From a virus: a DNA stretch of 47,784 nt. This document shows positions 9,260 to 37,456 of the stretch, one piece after another. Numbering within the stretch: the first letter of the stretch is position 1; every line of letters begins with the position of its first letter. Where the stretch lies: the UHGV virus genome UHGV-1372857; one strand, written 5' to 3'. Under the pieces are notes generated by a model. The model searched no databases. It was not told where the DNA came from and saw only the letters and a list, made by a program, of their open reading frames with translations. A program made the position numbers and the translations under genes.

Positions 9260-9717
9260 TTGCTAACCCCTCCCTTTTCATTCCCTAAAAAATACCACCA
9301 ATCTCCCCAAAAATCAACACCACTCAATTCAGCATGTTAGGGGCATCTGGGGCAGCATTGGGGCACCCTAGTTGCCCCAAACTTTTATGCTCTAAGTATA
9401 TGTATTATAATAATAATAGTAGTAGTTGGGGTAATGGGTAATATTATTATTCATATTATAGGTATTATTTTAACAATAAATTAACAAACTGGCGGCATTT
9501 TTATATATACAAGGGGATGGGTATCAAAATTGCCCCACTGCCCCAAAAATGTTAAATCCCTTTAGTGACAAGGATTGCGCGTGGGGCAGCACCATTCCCC
9601 AACGCCTTACCCACAGGGGTAAATTTTACCCCAGGCGGATTTATTTTCACCATCATATTGACGTAGATTGAGCGCCATCGTATAGTTACCACACCAACAA
9701 CAAAGAGGTGATGAAGA
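9260..9717. promoter_or_regulatory. divergent early control region / candidate replication origin
   Basis: GGGGCA/TGCCCCA iterons: three direct copies at 9340, 9349 and 9360, one inverted at 9373, two at 9531 and 9539, and GGGGCA at 9583. They flank a ~140-bp AT-rich tract (9383-9520). Contains a leftward TTGATT-17-TATTTT promoter and the rightward promoter at 9658-9686. Confidence 0.5.
9658..9686 (+). promoter_or_regulatory. strong sigma70 early promoter TTGACG-17-TATAGT driving the rightward early operon
   Basis: TTGACG at 9658-9663, a 17-bp spacer (tagattgagcgccatcg), TATAGT at 9681-9686, then RBS aagaggtg and ATG at 9718. Confidence 0.7.
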
Positions 9718-35019: not shown

Positions 35020-35399
35020 GAGATATGCTTGAGCTTGTTGACCAGTACCTTAGCGATGCCGGTCTTTATGATGGATGGACTTCTCAGCTTGAGTTCTGGA
35101 ACGATACCGAATTTGGCACCGACCGGTTTATGGTGCTGCAATCCAATGGCGGTACGAACGTAAGCAAAGACCTCAGCAATGATTATTATTTTTCGCTCTA
35201 TGTTGTCGGCCAGCAGGGTCAGTACAACATCGAGGAGACAAAAGCAAAAGCGCTTGATGTCATCTCATATATCAAAGAGCATCCAGTTGATAGTTGCATT
35301 GGCATGATTCAGTTGCAGGCGCCGCTTGGTCGCCCTACGCTTACGACAGAGAAAAGGCCTGTTTATGAGTTGCTGCTGAGGGTTGTTTTTGGTGAATAA
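35016..35399 (+). CDS. tail terminator (gpU-like) protein
   Basis: 127 aa, last gene before the tail tube region. Confidence 0.45.
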   Translation: MRDMLELVDQYLSDAGLYDGWTSQLEFWNDTEFGTDRFMVLQSNGGTNVSKDLSNDYYFSLYVVGQQGQYNIEETKAKALDVISYIKEHPVDSCIGMIQLQAPLGRPTLTTEKRPVYELLLRVVFGE

Positions 35400-35400
35400 A

Positions 35401-35425
35401 AAAGGCCGCTGACCGGCCTATTTAA
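35401..35425. terminator. terminator (aaaaa GGCCG ctgac CGGCC tattt)
   Basis: 5-bp GC stem serving both the plus-strand connector operon and the minus-strand tRNA transcript. Confidence 0.5.
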
Positions 35426-35577
35426 CCTTCATCCACAGTGATTTTGTGTTTAGCATGGACTTTCTTTTATGCGGGTTTGCTATATGGCTAATTGACTTCA
35501 TAAGCCGTTGCTTTTTATACCAATCAGAGCTTGGTGGAAATAATGGCATATTACCCTCTACATTTAGTTTGTAGTTG

Positions 35578-35654
35578 TGGTTCCCGCGACAGGATTCGAC
35601 CCTGTAATCATCCGATTATGAGTCGGGTGCTTTAACCAGTTAAGCTAAACGGGA
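35578..35654 (-). tRNA. tRNA-Met (anticodon CAT; could alternatively be Ile2/lysidine), CCA encoded
   Basis: Cloverleaf with acceptor TCCCGTT/CGCGGGA (one terminal mismatch), D-arm GCTT/AAGC, anticodon loop CTCATAA and T-arm ACAGG-GTCGAAT-CCTGT. Confidence 0.6.
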
Positions 35655-35657
35655 ATT

Positions 35658-35734
35658 TGGTGCACCATACTGGATTCGAACCAGTTACCGATTGCTTAGA
35701 AGGCAATTGCTCTATCCTGATGAGCTAATGGTGC
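35658..35734 (-). tRNA. tRNA-Arg (anticodon TCT, reads AGA), CCA encoded
   Basis: Perfect 7-bp acceptor GCACCAT/ATGGTGC, D-arm GCTC/GAGC, anticodon stem ATTGC/GCAAT with loop CTTCTAA, and T-arm ACTGG-TTCGAAT-CCAGT. Confidence 0.85.
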
Positions 35735-35815
35735 GTTGTGTTGTGGTGCTGTGCGTCAGCAATTCCTTCGTCGCCTTGGTATCCGCCGCAACCGAACCAA
35801 CTAGCATCGGGAAGA

Positions 35816-35903
35816 CCACAACGATAAGAGCACTGCACTTTGCTTCGTACTCCGTGGCAATAAAGTCCACCATGTAAACCTGCAATGCTCTTACCCGTTG
35901 TGT
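35816..35903. repeat. hairpin repeat unit A
   Basis: Arms CACAACG-AT-AAGAGCA … TGCTCTT-ACC-CGTTGTG enclosing 54 nt. Confidence 0.6.
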
Positions 35904-36025
35904 GTTGTGGTGGCCGGTGCTGATCTCCGGCTTTCTCTGGCATTACACGTACCCAAGACTATTCTCCAGAGATAGCGCTGTCCTCATCAAGGGGTGCCGT
36001 CTCTAACGTATCAGCCTACGCATTC

Positions 36026-36134
36026 ACCACAACGGAAAGAGCACTCAGTTGTACCTGCCAGTTGTGCCACTAGGAAACGCTTTCGCATACCGTTAAGCTC
36101 TTTGCAAGTTCTTTAATGCTCTTACCTGTTGTGC
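36026..36134. repeat. hairpin repeat unit B
   Basis: Arms CACAACG-GA-AAGAGCA … TGCTCTT-ACC-TGTTGTG enclosing 74 nt. Confidence 0.6.
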
Positions 36135-36291
36135 GCCCATTATTAATCACACCGGGCCAGTGCGCCGAATTCATTGACAAGGAGTCGGAAGACCTTGCTG
36201 GTGTTTAGCCGTTAGGCTGCTGCCAGATACATTTCTTCGTTTGCATTTATCTTTGTGGTCAGTTTCTAAAAACCCGCAAAGTCGCACCGAA

Positions 36292-36377
36292 AACTATCGG
36301 AAAGAGCACTGCCACTTTAACCCGCTCGACCCCACAATACGCCGCCGGCTGCTCCTCAATGCTCTTACCTGATAGTT
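36292..36377. repeat. hairpin repeat unit C (covarying outer stem)
   Basis: Arms AACTATC-GGA-AAGAGCA … TGCTCTT-ACCT-GATAGTT enclosing 51 nt. Confidence 0.6.
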
Positions 36378-36424
36378 GCCGGTTACGCGTCCGGCGTCTT
36401 TCGACCGCTAATTCGATCACTTCT

Positions 36425-36603
36425 TCAATTTTGCGTTGTAATGTCGCTATACCATGACCCTTTATCATGTGCGCCTGCGCATTTTAGCGCTTCGCCGGTA
36501 TTTTTTTTGATGAGGATTGTATCGTTAATCTCCTCTATCATTCCTGGACTTACCTCAACGCTAAGGATTACCAGTAGCGACATTATAATTAACTCAATCA
36601 AGT
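36425..36603 (-). CDS. hypothetical small membrane protein (52-58 aa; TTG or ATG start) with AGGAGG RBS
   Basis: caGGAGGttaacTTGattgagttaattataATGtcg… encoding (L)IELIIMSLLVILSVEVSPGMIEE…. The ORF track extends it to 36658, which has no support. Confidence 0.3.
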
Positions 36604-36657
36604 TAACCTCCTGTGCTGTTGATTTAAATCTACACCACCAATCAAAACCTGTCAACA

Positions 36658-36666
36658 TGATATAAT
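36658..36666 (+). promoter_or_regulatory. extended -10 promoter TGaTATAAT for the major tail gene
   Basis: TG at 36658-36659, TATAAT at 36661-36666. ATG at 36701 with RBS agagg. Confidence 0.5.
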
Positions 36667-36700
36667 GCGATTGTTTAGCTAAACACAGAGGATTCTAAAC

Positions 36701-37456
36701 ATGGCTATTTGTGCAAATGATAACGGCATCATCACAGGTCGCCAGTCGCTCATTGAGCTGGCTGATGGCTGCTGGGATGCTGTACCAGCAGAGGAAGACT
36801 GGAAGTTTTTTGCTCCCATGACCTCAAAAGGAGTCGACTTCAGCCCAAGCACCACCACTTCTGAGGCTGATGATGGCGATGGCTTTGTCGCAACGCTGGT
36901 CACTACCGCAGACCTCACCATTTCTGGTGATTTTGAAGTTCGCAAGGCTGACAAGGCTGATGAGTATGGCGTGCACAACCTCATCAAATACTTTGTCACA
37001 GAAGTAAAAGCTCGTCGCCAGCCGTCACTGTGGGTGCGTCAAACCACCGGTAATACCGTTGTCGTTGCTTACTGCAACATTACCGCTCTGAGCTATGATG
37101 GCGGCACCAACGACATCATCACCGGCTCGGTTGAATTCAAGCCGTATGATGGCTCTACCGTTGACGTGTCCAGCATCGAAGATTTGACGCTGACTACTGA
37201 TATCAGCGCAACAAAAAGCGTTGCTACTGGCGCAACTCTGACGCTTGGCCCTGTTGCGGCTTCTGGCGGTGTCGAGCCTTATACCTACCAATGGTATAAA
37301 GGCACTTCGCCGATCAGCGGTGCTACTACCGACACGTTCACCAAGGCCACTGCCGCCGCTGGTGATGCCGGTACGTACTTCTGCCGCGTGATGGACTCGG
37401 CAACCAGTCCTGATTACGTTGACTCCACCAAGTGTGTTGTTACCGTTGCGGAATAA
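36701..37456 (+). CDS. major tail (tube) protein with a C-terminal Ig-like (Big_2-type) domain
   Basis: 251 aa. C-terminal ~80 aa with …TLGPVAASGGVEPYTYQWYKGTSPISGATTDTFTKATAAAGDAGTYFCRV…, a classic Ig-like decoration. Confidence 0.7.
   Translation: MAICANDNGIITGRQSLIELADGCWDAVPAEEDWKFFAPMTSKGVDFSPSTTTSEADDGDGFVATLVTTADLTISGDFEVRKADKADEYGVHNLIKYFVTEVKARRQPSLWVRQTTGNTVVVAYCNITALSYDGGTNDIITGSVEFKPYDGSTVDVSSIEDLTLTTDISATKSVATGATLTLGPVAASGGVEPYTYQWYKGTSPISGATTDTFTKATAAAGDAGTYFCRVMDSATSPDYVDSTKCVVTVAE

What the first reader, a model, noticed from the sequence alone, without database searches (positions are those of the whole stretch)
35816..36377. Three paralogous long-hairpin units with a conserved inner stem and a compensatorily varying outer stem next to the tRNAs
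Units A (35816-35903), B (36026-36134) and C (36292-36377) each form a two-helix hairpin: outer 7-bp helix, small asymmetric internal loop (AT/ACC, GA/ACC, GGA/ACCT), and an inner 7-bp helix that is identical in all three (AAGAGCA/TGCTCTT). Each encloses a 51-74-nt interior that is not conserved in sequence. The outer helix is CACAACG/CGTTGTG in A and B but AACTATC/GATAGTT in C, so both arms changed together and base-pairing was kept. The sequence CGTTGTG(TG)TTGTGGTG also follows both tRNA-Arg (35734-) and unit A (35896-), so the units sit in tRNA-like cassettes. Candidates are stable processed ncRNAs co-transcribed with the tRNAs, protein-recognised inverted-repeat sites, or miniature TIR elements. 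None is annotated by any standard tool.
Basis: seen in the sequence. Interest (0 to 1): 0.75.

Follow-up and report, generated by a model that had tools for sequence, protein, structure and literature searches.

The report
Clamped RNA hairpin cassettes in phages
The three hairpins are real, fold as RNA on the strand that carries the tRNA genes, belong to a large undescribed family in enterobacterial phages, and flank an RNA that carries a tmRNA-style tag and is antisense to the host's ribosome-rescue RNA.

Summary
AAGAGCA-N45-75-TGCTCTT occurs 3 times against 0.01 expected. The working strand is the minus strand, shared with tRNA-Arg and tRNA-Met, inside one promoter-to-terminator unit (36655 to 35403). 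Each unit is an 18-21-bp helix with one bulged base (consensus CACAAC-A-GG-UAAGAGCAUU ... AGUGCUCUU-UCC-GUUGUG) closing a variable insert.

I collected 82 distinct arm pairs from phages and prophages. 14 of 19 helix pairs show compensatory changes, G.U outnumbers A.C 193 to 26, and all 51 units with a tRNA within 3 kb share its strand. Inserts fall into about 62 unrelated families; about 10 carry a T-arm. No Rfam family or paper describes them.

Two neighbouring modules matter:
- A tRNA-shaped domain (35904-36033) whose closing stem overlaps unit B's outer arm.
- Between units C and B, an RNA with a 10-codon tmRNA-like tag (ANEEMYLAAA*), two pseudoknots and no tRNA-like domain. Its 5' 45 nt are antisense to host tmRNA nt 68-109. 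It is conserved in 814 phage records.

Unit C's different outer stem exists because its 3' arm is the start of that antisense domain.

Best reading, inferred: the units are clamp and processing stems that package small RNAs and punctuate a polycistronic RNA operon.

The parts
36627..36655 (-). Sigma-70-like promoter, TTGACA-17-TAGATT, at the start of the minus-strand RNA operon.
   Evidence: Consensus scan, 10 of 12 matches. The same promoter sits directly upstream of the tag RNA in KlebP_265, HC8A and KFS-SE2. It is a consensus match only; no expression data.
36378..36395 (-). Small hairpin GCCGG-ACGCGUAA-CCGGC immediately 5' of unit C.
   Evidence: Read from the sequence. A homologous hairpin precedes units or tRNA-like elements in VLCpiS10a, P7 and SFP10.
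36292..36377 (-). Unit C, a clamped hairpin. Outer helix AACUAUC/GAUAGUU, GG/CC step, inner helix UAAGAGCAUUG/CAGUGCUCUU, 45-nt insert.
   Evidence: Fold -41.6 kcal/mol, z -3.9. Homologous hairpins carry compensatory changes in HK620, St11Ph5, nithesis, VLCpiS10a and L118. Included in alignment A1.
36250..36298 (-). 5' domain of the tag RNA (GAUAGUUUUCGGUGCGACUUUGCGGGUUUUUAGAAACUGACCA), antisense to host tmRNA nt about 68-109. Its first 7 nt are unit C's 3' outer arm.
   Evidence: RNAduplex selects the same ssrA region in all 14 phage lineages. Local alignment to the reverse complement of ssrA scores 20-31 in 13 of 14 lineages (SSU5 scores 16, inside the control range), against 10-19 for sense, reversed and complement-only controls. 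The target is near-invariant across the sampled Enterobacterales-type ssrA genes.
36212..36244 (-). tmRNA-like tag reading frame, GCA AAC GAA GAA AUG UAU CUG GCA GCA GCC UAA = ANEEMYLAAA*. It has no start codon and is preceded by AUAAAU.
   Evidence: Sub-threshold Rfam matches to tmRNA_permuted (24.8 bits) and beta_tmRNA. 23 distinct versions, every one 10 codons plus a stop. Variable columns by codon position are 5, 7 and 11. Position -4 is always A.
36135..36198 (-). Two H-type pseudoknots after the tag: GCAAGG..CCGA..CCUUGU..UCGG, then CGCAC..GCCC..GUGUG-AUUAAUAAU-GGGC.
   Evidence: Pairings read by eye across phages in the sequences, not formally counted. GUGAGG/CCUCAU and CCAA/UUGG replace the first set in HY02. 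GACGGGAG/CUCCCGUC replaces GCCC/GGGC in SFP10. CGUAC/GUAUG occurs in HY02.
36026..36134 (-). Unit B, a clamped hairpin. CACAAC-A-GG-UAAGAGCAUUA ... GAGUGCUCUU-UCC-GUUGUG, 67-nt structured insert. It starts directly after the second pseudoknot.
   Evidence: Fold -37.4 kcal/mol. About 90% identical in the HK620 late leader. A five-ortholog consensus keeps both helices and an insert helix with a compensatory U-A to G-C change.
35904..36033 (-). tRNA-shaped domain. Closing stem GUUGUGGUG (36033-36025) with CACCACAAC (35912-35904); hairpin with GGCUGA loop (36006-36021); variable middle; hairpin GCCGG-AGAUCAGCA-CCGGC (35913-35931) abutting the 3' strand. It overlaps unit B's 3' outer arm.
   Evidence: 48 distinct versions collected by loop anchors only. 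The inner 7 bp of the closing stem are about 98% paired, 13 of 19 pairs show double changes, and 0 of 500 shuffles reach that. A canonical T-loop occurs in an E. coli prophage. Some versions end in G-CCA.
35816..35903 (-). Unit A, a clamped hairpin. CACAACG-G-GUAAGAGCAUUGCA ... UGCAGUGCUCUUAU-CGUUGUG, about 21 bp with one bulged G.
   Evidence: Fold -39.4 kcal/mol, z -4.2. A near-identical ortholog occurs in KlebP_265.
35735..35749 (-). Copy of the repeat CACCACAACACAACG forming the 5' leader of tRNA-Arg. ACCACAAC is complementary to GUUGUGGU at the 3' end of unit A.
   Evidence: Read from the sequence. Same 9-mer pair as in the tRNA-shaped domain. Pairing at this copy is inferred only.
35578..35734 (-). 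tRNA-Arg(UCU) 35658-35734 and tRNA-Met(CAU) 35578-35654, the last genes of the operon.
   Evidence: ARAGORN. Rfam tRNA, 67.3 and 55.3 bits.
35403..35419 (-). Intrinsic-terminator-like hairpin AGGCCGGUCAGCGGCCU followed by a U-run.
   Evidence: Consensus scan.

Best explanation
The three units are RNA elements on the minus strand. They belong to a large, previously undescribed family of clamped hairpin cassettes found in enterobacterial phages and prophages.

Each unit is an 18-21-bp helix with one bulged purine and a nearly invariant core (AAC-A-GG-N-AAG paired with CUU-N-CC-GUU). The helix closes a variable 25-170-nt insert.

In this window the units sit in one roughly 1.2-kb non-coding operon: promoter, unit C, tmRNA-like tag RNA, unit B, tRNA-shaped domain, unit A, tRNA-Arg, tRNA-Met, terminator.

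Proposed mechanism:
1. The clamp folds locally during transcription and isolates its insert.
2. It acts as a double-stranded processing and stability stem, with an RNase III-type activity as the most likely partner. Together with the adjacent tRNA-shaped domains and true tRNAs (RNase P and 3' trimming), it punctuates the polycistronic transcript into discrete stable RNAs.
3. This releases the insert as a stem-capped small RNA and sets the ends of neighbouring RNAs. Unit C would create the 5' end of the anti-tmRNA tag RNA, an end that other phages obtain directly from a promoter. Unit B caps the tag RNA's 3' end.

Shown: the structure, the strand, the family, the covariation, the co-orientation with tRNAs and the positions at module boundaries.
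Inferred: cleavage, the enzyme involved, stabilisation, and any function of the inserts.
For: Structure and family:
- Three units in the window against 0.01 expected.
- 93 of 131 matches to a 14-mer from the 5' arm in IMG/VR are full units. A second scan anchored on the 3' flank gave 83 more distinct hairpins.
- Alignment A1 holds 82 distinct arm pairs: 93.4% of cells paired, 14 of 19 pairs with changes on both sides, 0 of 500 shuffles reaching this, and slid controls 36-62% paired.
- Inner-helix variants are fully re-paired, for example AAGCCAAAU/AUUUGGCUU, AAUGACACU/AGUGUCAUU and AAGAAAG/CUUUCUU.

RNA on the minus strand:
- G.U 193 against A.C 26 in helix cells.
- HK620 keeps unit C's outer helix only through G.U pairs.
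- The nearest tRNA within 3 kb is on the same strand in 51 of 51 cases, at a median distance of 133 nt.
- The window has a promoter and a terminator on the minus strand.

Boundary positions:
- Unit B-type hairpins start directly after the tag RNA's last pseudoknot in the window, HK620, KlebP_265, VLCpiS10a, HC8A, nithesis, KFS-SE2, St11Ph5 and P7.
- Unit C-type hairpins use the tag RNA's first 7 nt as their 3' arm. In KlebP_265, HC8A, KFS-SE2, HY02, phiEa104, SSU5 and Y2 a promoter sits at that same place instead.
- In P7 a unit starts 1 nt after the CCA of tRNA-Thr.

Cargo-like inserts:
- About 62 unrelated insert families.
- Inserts swap independently of the outer helices (L097 and L030).
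- Orthologous inserts are conserved across unrelated phage families with a compensatory pair.
- They have no ORF signal.
Against: - There are no expression or RNA-end data of any kind. RNase III cleavage is inferred only from helix length and position.
- The nearly invariant bulged core suggests sequence-specific recognition rather than generic double-stranded RNA recognition.
- Only 32 of 132 unit-bearing loci carry the tag RNA, and 95 of 146 units have no tRNA within 3 kb. The units are therefore not tied to either neighbour.
- In B/A-type units the 3' outer arm overlaps the 5' strand of the closing stem of the next tRNA-shaped domain. The two pairings exclude each other, and the RNAfold centroid prefers the long-range stem for unit B. 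That fits a switch as well as a static processing stem.
- My unit finder required at least 5 of 6 outer and 9 of 10 inner pairs. The percentage paired in A1 is therefore inflated, although the diversity of pair types is not.
- A plain hairpin would be enough for processing, so the variety of inserts is not explained by processing alone.
Confidence: 0.45

Rival explanations
1. The clamp is a protein- or factor-binding scaffold comparable to a Y RNA. The conserved bulged helix would bind a host factor. The variable insert, in some members a tRNA-like domain, would be the effector or decoy, for example a mimic of a tRNA part that titrates a host nuclease, a modification enzyme or a defence protein.
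For: - The core around the bulge is nearly invariant in sequence as well as in pairing: A4, A7, G8, G9, A12, T33, C36, C37, G38 and T40 are invariant in 82 sequences.
- About 10 insert families carry canonical T-arms, some with a D-arm-like hairpin and no anticodon arm, seated on the long helix.
- Two unrelated insert families contain GGG/CCC stems with a CAU loop resembling the initiator-tRNA anticodon arm (resemblance judged by eye).
- The family occurs in unrelated phage types, which points to a host partner.
Against: - No Rfam match to YrlA or any other family on the units.
- The three window units have no T-arm.
- There is no general enrichment of anticodon-loop-like hairpins in inserts: 3 of 62 families against 2.85 in shuffles.
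- Where a T-arm is present, it adjoins the long helix as an extended acceptor stem. To my knowledge that differs from the YrlA topology.
- No candidate partner has been identified.
Confidence: 0.2
2. The units are conformational switches. The 3' outer arm can pair with its own 5' arm or with the next module. That choice would regulate the folding or processing of the tRNA-shaped domain. For unit C, it would regulate exposure of the first nucleotides of the anti-tmRNA seed.
For: - GUUGUG|GUG is shared between the unit's outer helix and the 7-9-bp closing stem of the tRNA-shaped domain.
- Both pairings show covariation.
- In L228, a G-to-A change in the shared arm is compensated in the long-range stem and not in the unit's outer helix.
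- The centroid fold gives the long-range stem for unit B and local hairpins for units A and C.
- Unit C's outer helix sequesters UAGUU, part of the UAGUUUUCG block that pairs with the tmRNA tag codons.
Against: - Many units are not followed by a tRNA-shaped domain. Only 70 of 129 downstream flanks have the hairpin plus CCA-type tail, and 78 of 130 flanks have a hairpin followed by a strand at least 6 of 7 complementary.
- There is no evidence of a ligand or signal.
- The overlap may simply reflect recombination at shared repeats.
Confidence: 0.15
3. The units are decaying relics of tRNA genes and their leader-trailer sequences. They would be carried along in a tRNA hot spot with no present function.
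For: - They lie in tRNA regions or in lambdoid late leaders that often host tRNA genes.
- Some inserts keep T-arms.
- The flanking repeat CACCACAAC resembles a tRNA 3' end plus trailer.
Against: - The stems, not the tRNA-like parts, are what is conserved, and they are maintained by many compensatory changes across dozens of lineages.
- Relics would lose pairing.
- The same clamp encloses about 62 unrelated inserts.
- One insert type alone is present in 334 of 5426 complete E. coli genomes at 95% identity or more.
Confidence: 0.07
4. The units are DNA-level elements: inverted repeats bound by a protein (such as the ParB-like or AP2 products), recombination sites for cassette exchange, or miniature TIR transposons.
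For: - The arms are inverted repeats.
- Inserts shuffle between different outer arms, which implies recombination within the conserved arms.
- The window differs from KlebP_265 by a roughly 325-bp insertion that includes unit C's 5' half.
Against: - G.U pairs outnumber A.C pairs 193 to 26. DNA duplexes or cruciforms have no such strand bias.
- Strand orientation relative to tRNAs is fixed in 51 of 51 cases.
- I saw no target-site duplication at the window/KlebP_265 junction.
- Element bodies are not conserved among copies.
- The family occurs in phages with unrelated proteomes, which argues against a cognate phage DNA-binding protein.
Confidence: 0.05

Closest known systems
RNase III processing stalks (rRNA operon stems; phage T7 and lambda RNase III sites). 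Compared from my own knowledge.
   Same: A helix of about 20 bp, interrupted by a bulge or small internal loop, is formed by sequences flanking an RNA that is to be released. It lies in a polycistronic non-coding transcript and at module boundaries.
   Different: Cleavage is untested. The core sequence is nearly invariant, which is unusual for RNase III sites. The enclosed inserts are short, hypervariable and of unknown function.
tmRNA, including two-piece (permuted) tmRNA. Rfam RF00023, RF04321, RF01850.
   Same: This applies to the RNA between units C and B.
- A 10-codon tag, A-N-D/E-x-x-x-L-A-A/V-A, starting at GCA with no start codon.
- A at position -4.
- The stop codon in a hairpin loop.
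- Pseudoknots after the tag.
- Unit C resembles the long interrupted helix that precedes the tag in permuted tmRNA genes.
   Different: - No tRNA-like domain, no G3.U70 acceptor stem and no CCA end in the window or in HK620.
- Rfam scores of 13-34 bits against the gathering score of 47.
- Only two pseudoknots.
- A 5' domain antisense to the host's own tmRNA, which no tmRNA has.
Bacterial Y RNAs (YrlA, RF02553).
   Same: A long terminal stem with a conserved bulged site carries a variable module. In some family members that module is a tRNA-like domain with T- and D-arms and no anticodon arm.
   Different: - No covariance-model match.
- The stem sequence is different.
- Most inserts, including all three in the window, are not tRNA-like.
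- No Ro/Rsr link was tested.
tRNA-like punctuation elements and stable RNAs of phage tRNA clusters (T4 species 1 and 2 RNAs; mitochondrial tRNA punctuation). Compared from my own knowledge.
   Same: Non-tRNA structured RNAs are co-transcribed with phage tRNAs. The tRNA-shaped domain has a 7-bp closing stem, a hairpin 3 nt after the 5' strand and a T-arm-like hairpin abutting the 3' strand. It could be read by tRNA-processing enzymes.
   Different: - Not recognised by ARAGORN or the Rfam tRNA model.
- The loop is 9 nt (AGAUCAGCA) instead of a 7-nt T-loop in most copies.
- Processing is untested.
STnc100 / PasD prophage sRNAs (RF02076; bioRxiv 10.64898/2026.05.13.724894).
   Same: They come from the same kind of prophage regions, near the antiterminator Q and TerB genes. 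In P7 a sub-threshold STnc100 match (43 bits, gathering score 47) begins at the GGUGAAU-plus-hairpin segment that follows a unit's 3' arm.
   Different: There is no STnc100 match in this window. STnc100 does not include the clamp helix.

Membership tests
tRNA gene or pseudogene | Cloverleaf with a T-arm (GTTCRANNC loop on a 5-bp stem) recognised by ARAGORN or Rfam RF00005. | tested here: not met
   ARAGORN finds only tRNA-Met and tRNA-Arg. The Rfam E-value scan gives no tRNA hit on the units. A T-arm scan finds none in units A, B or C. Some other family members do carry T-arms.
tmRNA (standard or permuted) | Tag reading frame that starts at a resume codon with no start codon, has A at position -4 and ends in a hydrophobic Ala-rich tail. 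| tested here: met
   Window tag ANEEMYLAAA* at 36244-36212. 23 distinct versions, all 10 codons, with a third-position excess of variation. Position -4 is A in all 32 instances. The importance of A86 is taken from PMC2481249.
tmRNA (standard or permuted) | tRNA-like domain: acceptor stem with G3.U70, a T-arm and a 3' CCA, joined to the tag covalently or by base pairing. | tested here: not met
   No T-arm in the window outside the two tRNAs, and none at all in the HK620 locus. ARAGORN finds no tmRNA. The acceptor-like stem of the tRNA-shaped domain is UGUGGUG/CACCACA, with no G3.U70.
tmRNA (standard or permuted) | Score at or above the Rfam gathering threshold. | tested here: not met
   tmRNA_permuted 24.8 bits against 47 in the window. 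13-34 bits in other phages.
Y RNA (YrlA) | Match to RF02553: a Ro-binding stem plus a tRNA-like module. | tested here: not met
   The only YrlA hits overlap true tRNAs. There is none on T-arm-bearing units.
RNase III processing stem | About two turns of mostly continuous double-stranded RNA flanking the RNA to be released. | tested here: met
   18-21 bp with a single bulge in units A, B and C. The 19-pair family consensus is 93% paired.
RNase III processing stem | Staggered cleavage by RNase III in vivo or in vitro. | not testable with these tools
   Needs end mapping in rnc+ and rnc- hosts, or an in vitro cleavage assay.
MITE / miniature TIR element | Terminal inverted repeats around a conserved body, target-site duplication, and insertion in either orientation. 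| tested here: not met
   About 62 unrelated bodies. No target-site duplication seen at the window/KlebP_265 junction. Orientation is fixed relative to tRNAs in 51 of 51 cases.
Intrinsic terminator | GC-rich hairpin followed by a U-run. | tested here: not met
   The only terminator-like site in 35350-36720 is at 35419-35403. The units have no U-run.
Small-protein gene | Insert reads as an ORF with a conserved frame and stop. | tested here: not met
   Insert lengths modulo 3 are 27, 41 and 42. In-frame stops fall inside the insert in more than half of the units in every frame.

The most novel reading that the evidence does not exclude
The RNA between units C and B is a phage-encoded surrogate coding piece for the host's ribosome-rescue system.

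Its 5' 45 nt base-pair with host tmRNA across the 3' half of pseudoknot 1, the resume codon and the first six tag codons. This silences the host tag template and tethers the phage's own resume site, 10-codon tag and pseudoknots to the host tRNA-like domain and SmpB. A one-piece host tmRNA would thereby become a chimeric two-piece tmRNA that writes a phage-specified tag.

The clamped hairpins are the processing clamps that cut this RNA, and other small-RNA cargoes, out of tRNA operons and late leaders.

A weaker version is that the RNA is only an antisense inhibitor or sponge of tmRNA.
Probability: 0.25. Interest if true: 0.95.

Novelty: new variant of a known kind. Interest (0 to 1): 0.8.

Why it matters
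- The clamp hairpin is a conserved RNA structure present in hundreds of phage and prophage genomes. One insert type alone occurs in 334 of 5426 complete E. coli genomes. No annotation tool or Rfam family reports it.
- It marks a modular and apparently exchangeable way in which phages package small structured RNAs next to tRNA genes and in lambdoid late leaders.
- It also led to an RNA conserved across P22-like, P1-like, FelixO1-like, ViI-like, G7C-like, SSU5-like and Klebsiella phages. That RNA combines a tmRNA-style tag with an antisense domain against host tmRNA.
- If that RNA reprograms or blocks trans-translation, it would be a new form of phage control over host translation quality control. 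It would also give a concrete handle on the old observation that P22-type phages depend on tmRNA.
- The annotation gain is immediate: these regions are currently labelled as intergenic or as spurious small ORFs.

Tried and rejected
1. Rfam at gathering thresholds found only the two tRNAs. E-value scans gave no family for the units.
2. Unit C as the tRNA-like domain of a permuted tmRNA. The insert has a D-loop-like UGGGGUCGAGCGGG, but no T-arm, acceptor stem or CCA, and the Rfam alignment pairs poorly there. Rejected for the window.
3. Inserts as small ORFs with an SD-like AGGU and a UUG start in the 5' arm. There is no frame or stop-codon signal.
4. Inserts as anticodon-arm mimics in general. 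No enrichment: 3 of 62 families against 2.85 expected.
5. Y RNA membership. No covariance-model hit.
6. A self-contained tmRNA using adjacent tRNA-like elements (SFP10 TLD-like element, St11Ph5 odd tRNA-Ala, KlebP_265 tRNA-Ser sharing GAUAGU). These are inconsistent between lineages and absent in HK620.
7. The tag RNA's 5' domain pairing mainly with its own tag region. Predicted duplexes are -15 to -24 kcal/mol against -24 to -46 with host ssrA.
8. The 933W Q-to-stx tRNA region as a well-studied example. It has no units.
9. Literature. tmRNA surveys list no enterobacterial phage tmRNA. Searches by sequence string and by topic found nothing. The P1 genome paper is not held.
10. PHROGs gave no match for the small ORF upstream of unit C.
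11. Hammerhead and other ribozyme cores were looked for by eye only. None was evident and Rfam gave no hit.
Full report
**1. Observation**

The three units are at the stated coordinates. AAGAGCA-N45-75-TGCTCTT occurs three times in the window against 0.01 expected, and none of 100 shuffles reached three.

Each unit folds into a long hairpin, and all three fold better as minus-strand RNA. Energies are -39.4, -37.4 and -41.6 kcal/mol on minus against -31.6, -25.3 and -28.3 on plus. The z-scores on minus are -4.2, -1.7 and -3.9.

Two corrections apply. Unit B's 3' outer arm is TGTTGTG, not CGTTGTG. The 'asymmetric internal loops' resolve into one bulged base, a GG/CC step and a U.U mismatch or U-A pair, so each unit is one 18-21-bp helix.

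**2. Strand and transcription unit**

tRNA-Arg (35658-35734) and tRNA-Met (35578-35654) are on the minus strand. A TTGACA-17-TAGATT promoter at 36655-36627 and an intrinsic-terminator-like site at 35419-35403 are also on the minus strand. They bracket a roughly 1.2-kb non-coding block that lies between plus-strand head-tail and major-tail genes.

**3. The family**

Relatives of this phage and quite different phages carry homologous units.
- Klebsiella phages KlebP_265 and VLCpiS10a.
- P22-like HK620, where the units lie in the late leader between pR'/qut and the late terminator.
- P7, G7C-like St11Ph5 and nithesis, and the siphophages HC8A and KFS-SE2.

An IMG/VR scan with a 14-mer from the 5' arm returned 131 matches, of which 93 are complete units. 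A second scan anchored only on the 3' flank gave 83 distinct hairpins. Their inner helices are often rewritten but still paired, for example AAGCCAAAU/AUUUGGCUU, AAUGACACU/AGUGUCAUU and AAGAAAG/CUUUCUU.

On 82 distinct arm pairs (alignment A1):
- 93.4% of helix cells pair.
- 14 of 19 pairs show changes on both sides.
- No shuffle out of 500 reaches any of the measures.
- Sliding the partner by 1-3 columns drops pairing to 36-62%.

One caveat applies. The finder required at least 5 of 6 outer and 9 of 10 inner pairs, so the percentage paired is inflated. The variety of pair types is not.

G.U pairs outnumber A.C pairs 193 to 26. This fits selection on RNA of the CACAAC...GGUAAGAGCA strand, which is the window's minus strand. 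Whenever a tRNA lies within 3 kb it is on the same strand: 51 of 51 cases, at a median distance of 133 nt.

In E. coli, one insert type alone is present in 334 of 5426 complete genomes. It sits in the Q-to-holin late leader, just after the first terminator-like hairpin.

**4. Inserts**

110 distinct inserts fall into about 62 unrelated families of 25-170 nt.
- They have no ORF signal.
- They show no general excess of anticodon-loop-like hairpins.
- About 10 families contain a canonical T-arm, some with a D-arm-like hairpin. In those, the long helix acts as an extended acceptor stem.
- Inserts and outer helices reassort (L097 and L030).
- Orthologs of unit B from five sources keep an insert helix through a U-A to G-C change.

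The three window inserts are not tRNA-like.

**5. A tRNA-shaped neighbour**

It is the exact complement of GUUGUGGUG, which follows units A and B.

In the window, 36033-36025 pairs with 35912-35904 and closes a domain with three features:
- a 5-bp hairpin with a GGCUGA loop, 3 nt after the 5' strand;
- a variable middle;
- a 5-bp hairpin with a 9-nt loop (AGAUCAGCA) abutting the 3' strand.

I collected 48 distinct versions using the two loops as the only anchors. The inner 7 bp of the closing stem are about 98% paired. Six of its nine pairs show double changes, for example GAUUGGAUG/CAUCCAAUC. Over all three helices, 13 of 19 pairs do, and 0 of 500 shuffles reach that.

Some versions have a canonical T-loop. 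Some end in G-CCA.

The 5' strand of this stem overlaps the preceding unit's 3' outer arm. The two pairings therefore exclude each other. The RNAfold centroid picks the long-range stem for unit B and local hairpins for units A and C.

**6. The RNA between units C and B**

A relaxed Rfam scan gave sub-threshold tmRNA matches at 36212-36421(-) and 36164-36265(-).

The minus strand reads AUAAAU GCA AAC GAA GAA AUG UAU CUG GCA GCA GCC UAA, which is ANEEMYLAAA*. There is no start codon and the stop lies in a hairpin loop. Two pseudoknots follow, and I read compensatory differences in them across phages by eye.

This segment is conserved in 814 phage records from P22-like, P1-like, FelixO1-like, ViI-like, G7C-like, SSU5, Erwinia and Klebsiella phages. 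In the loci I read it is on the same strand as the tRNAs.

The frame behaves like a coding sequence:
- All 23 distinct DNA versions have exactly 10 codons plus a stop.
- They give 15 peptides of the form A-N-[DE]-x-x-x-[LMR]-[AMV]-[AV]-A.
- Variable columns by codon position are 5, 7 and 11.
- Position -4 is A in every case. That matches A86, which is essential in E. coli tmRNA (PMC2481249).

No tRNA-like domain accompanies it in the window or in HK620. Published tmRNA surveys list no such phage gene.

Instead, the RNA's first 45 nt or so are antisense to host tmRNA.
- RNAduplex selects the same ssrA region, within nt 54-137 and always spanning the resume codon and the first tag codons, in all 14 lineages.
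- Local alignment to the reverse complement of E. coli ssrA hits nt 68-109 with scores of 20-31 in 13 of 14 lineages. SSU5 scores 16, which is inside the 10-19 control range.
- Predicted duplexes are -24 to -46 kcal/mol with the host against -15 to -24 with the RNA's own tag region.
- The invariant GUUUUCGU is the complement of ACGAAAAC in the host tag codons.
- The target is near-invariant across the roughly 117 Enterobacterales-type ssrA genes sampled.

In several phages a promoter sits right at this 5' end. In the window, HK620, VLCpiS10a and the G7C-like phages, unit C sits there instead and uses GAUAGUU as its 3' arm. This explains the 'compensatory' outer stem. Unit C's 3' arm is fixed by the antisense domain and its 5' arm has adapted to it.

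**7. Interpretation**

Shown: the units are RNA structures of a widespread family, placed at the borders of other RNA modules (tag RNA, tRNA-shaped domains, tRNAs).

Inferred: they act as clamp and processing stems. They would fold locally, be cut or capped by a double-strand-specific activity with RNase III as the obvious candidate, release their inserts as small RNAs and define neighbouring RNA ends. The tRNA-shaped domains and the tRNAs would supply RNase P-type cuts.

Evidence against a purely generic processing role:
- the invariant bulge core;
- the variety of inserts;
- the competition with the long-range stem.

I therefore keep a factor-binding scaffold and a structural switch as live rivals. 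The DNA-level readings and the 'dead tRNA' reading are disfavoured.

Only 32 of 132 unit-bearing loci carry the tag RNA. The units are therefore an independent module.

**8. Novelty**

There is no Rfam family and I found no paper. The nearest curated neighbour is STnc100. A sub-threshold STnc100 match in P7 starts right after a unit.

I rate the units as a new variant of known kinds (processing or scaffold hairpins, tRNA-like punctuation). The tag RNA may be something categorically new.

Noticed in passing
window 36135-36298 (minus strand): A tmRNA-like RNA with no tRNA-like domain: resume context AUAAAU, 10-codon tag ANEEMYLAAA*, stop codon in a hairpin loop, and two pseudoknots. It is conserved in 814 phage records from at least eight unrelated phage groups and is annotated in none of the records I inspected.
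   Followed up: yes
window 36250-36298 (minus strand), compared with E. coli ssrA (L134): The first 45 nt or so of that RNA are antisense to host tmRNA nt 68-109, which cover the 3' half of PK1, the A-rich tract, the resume codon and the first six codons. The invariant GUUUUCGU is the complement of ACGAAAAC in the host tag. The phage tags differ from the host tag at exactly that place.
   Followed up: yes
window 35904-36033 (minus strand): A tRNA-shaped domain closed by GUUGUGGUG/CACCACAAC, with a GGCUGA-loop hairpin and an AGAUCAGCA-loop hairpin. Covariation supports it in 48 versions. It overlaps unit B's outer arm and also occurs without a unit (L135, L088).
   Followed up: yes
window 36425-36601 (minus strand; the longest ORF runs to 36658): A possible small ORF with a hydrophobic N-terminus, preceded by AGGAGG and a UUG start, lies between the promoter and unit C. 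VLCpiS10a has an unrelated small hydrophobic ORF at the same place. It has no PHROGs match. It belongs to a roughly 325-nt insertion relative to KlebP_265.
   Followed up: partly
L006 (Salmonella phage SFP10), about 1840-1905 on the minus strand, and two further elements downstream of the tag: tRNA-like elements that ARAGORN does not call. One has acceptor GGUGAGG/CCUCGCC with U3.G70, a canonical T-arm and no anticodon arm. It lies about 130 nt upstream of the tag RNA.
   Followed up: partly
L007 (St11Ph5) 1796-1867: The annotated tRNA-Ala(CGC), just upstream of a unit C-type hairpin and the tag RNA, lacks G3.U70 (it has C3-G70 and G4.U69). Among Rfam models at E below 1 it is matched only by tRNA-Sec, below threshold.
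   Followed up: no
IMG/VR loci L149, L167, L045 and L113, L014; also P7 (L004, about 700-760): Two unrelated insert families contain a GGG/CCC stem with a CAU-containing 7-nt loop (GGGCUCAUAACCC, GGGUUCAUAUCCC). This resembles the anticodon arm of initiator tRNA.
   Followed up: partly
L004 (phage P7) 217-332: A sub-threshold STnc100 (RF02076) match, 43 bits against a gathering score of 47, begins at the GGUGAAU-plus-hairpin segment right after a clamp unit. P7 carries at least four clamp units interleaved with tRNA-Asn, tRNA-Thr and tRNA-Ser, downstream of the C1-controlled Op(ban) operator.
   Followed up: partly
L118 (IMG/VR contig) 9535-9610: ARAGORN calls a tRNA with a CUA anticodon (an amber suppressor type, labelled tRNA-Pyl). 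It lies in a phage tRNA array that is followed by three clamp units and a tag RNA.
   Followed up: no
window 35393-35419: The terminator hairpin GGCCGGTCAGCGGCC lies right after the plus-strand gene that ends at 35399. It has a U-run on the minus strand and an A-run upstream, so it could terminate both converging transcription units.
   Followed up: no
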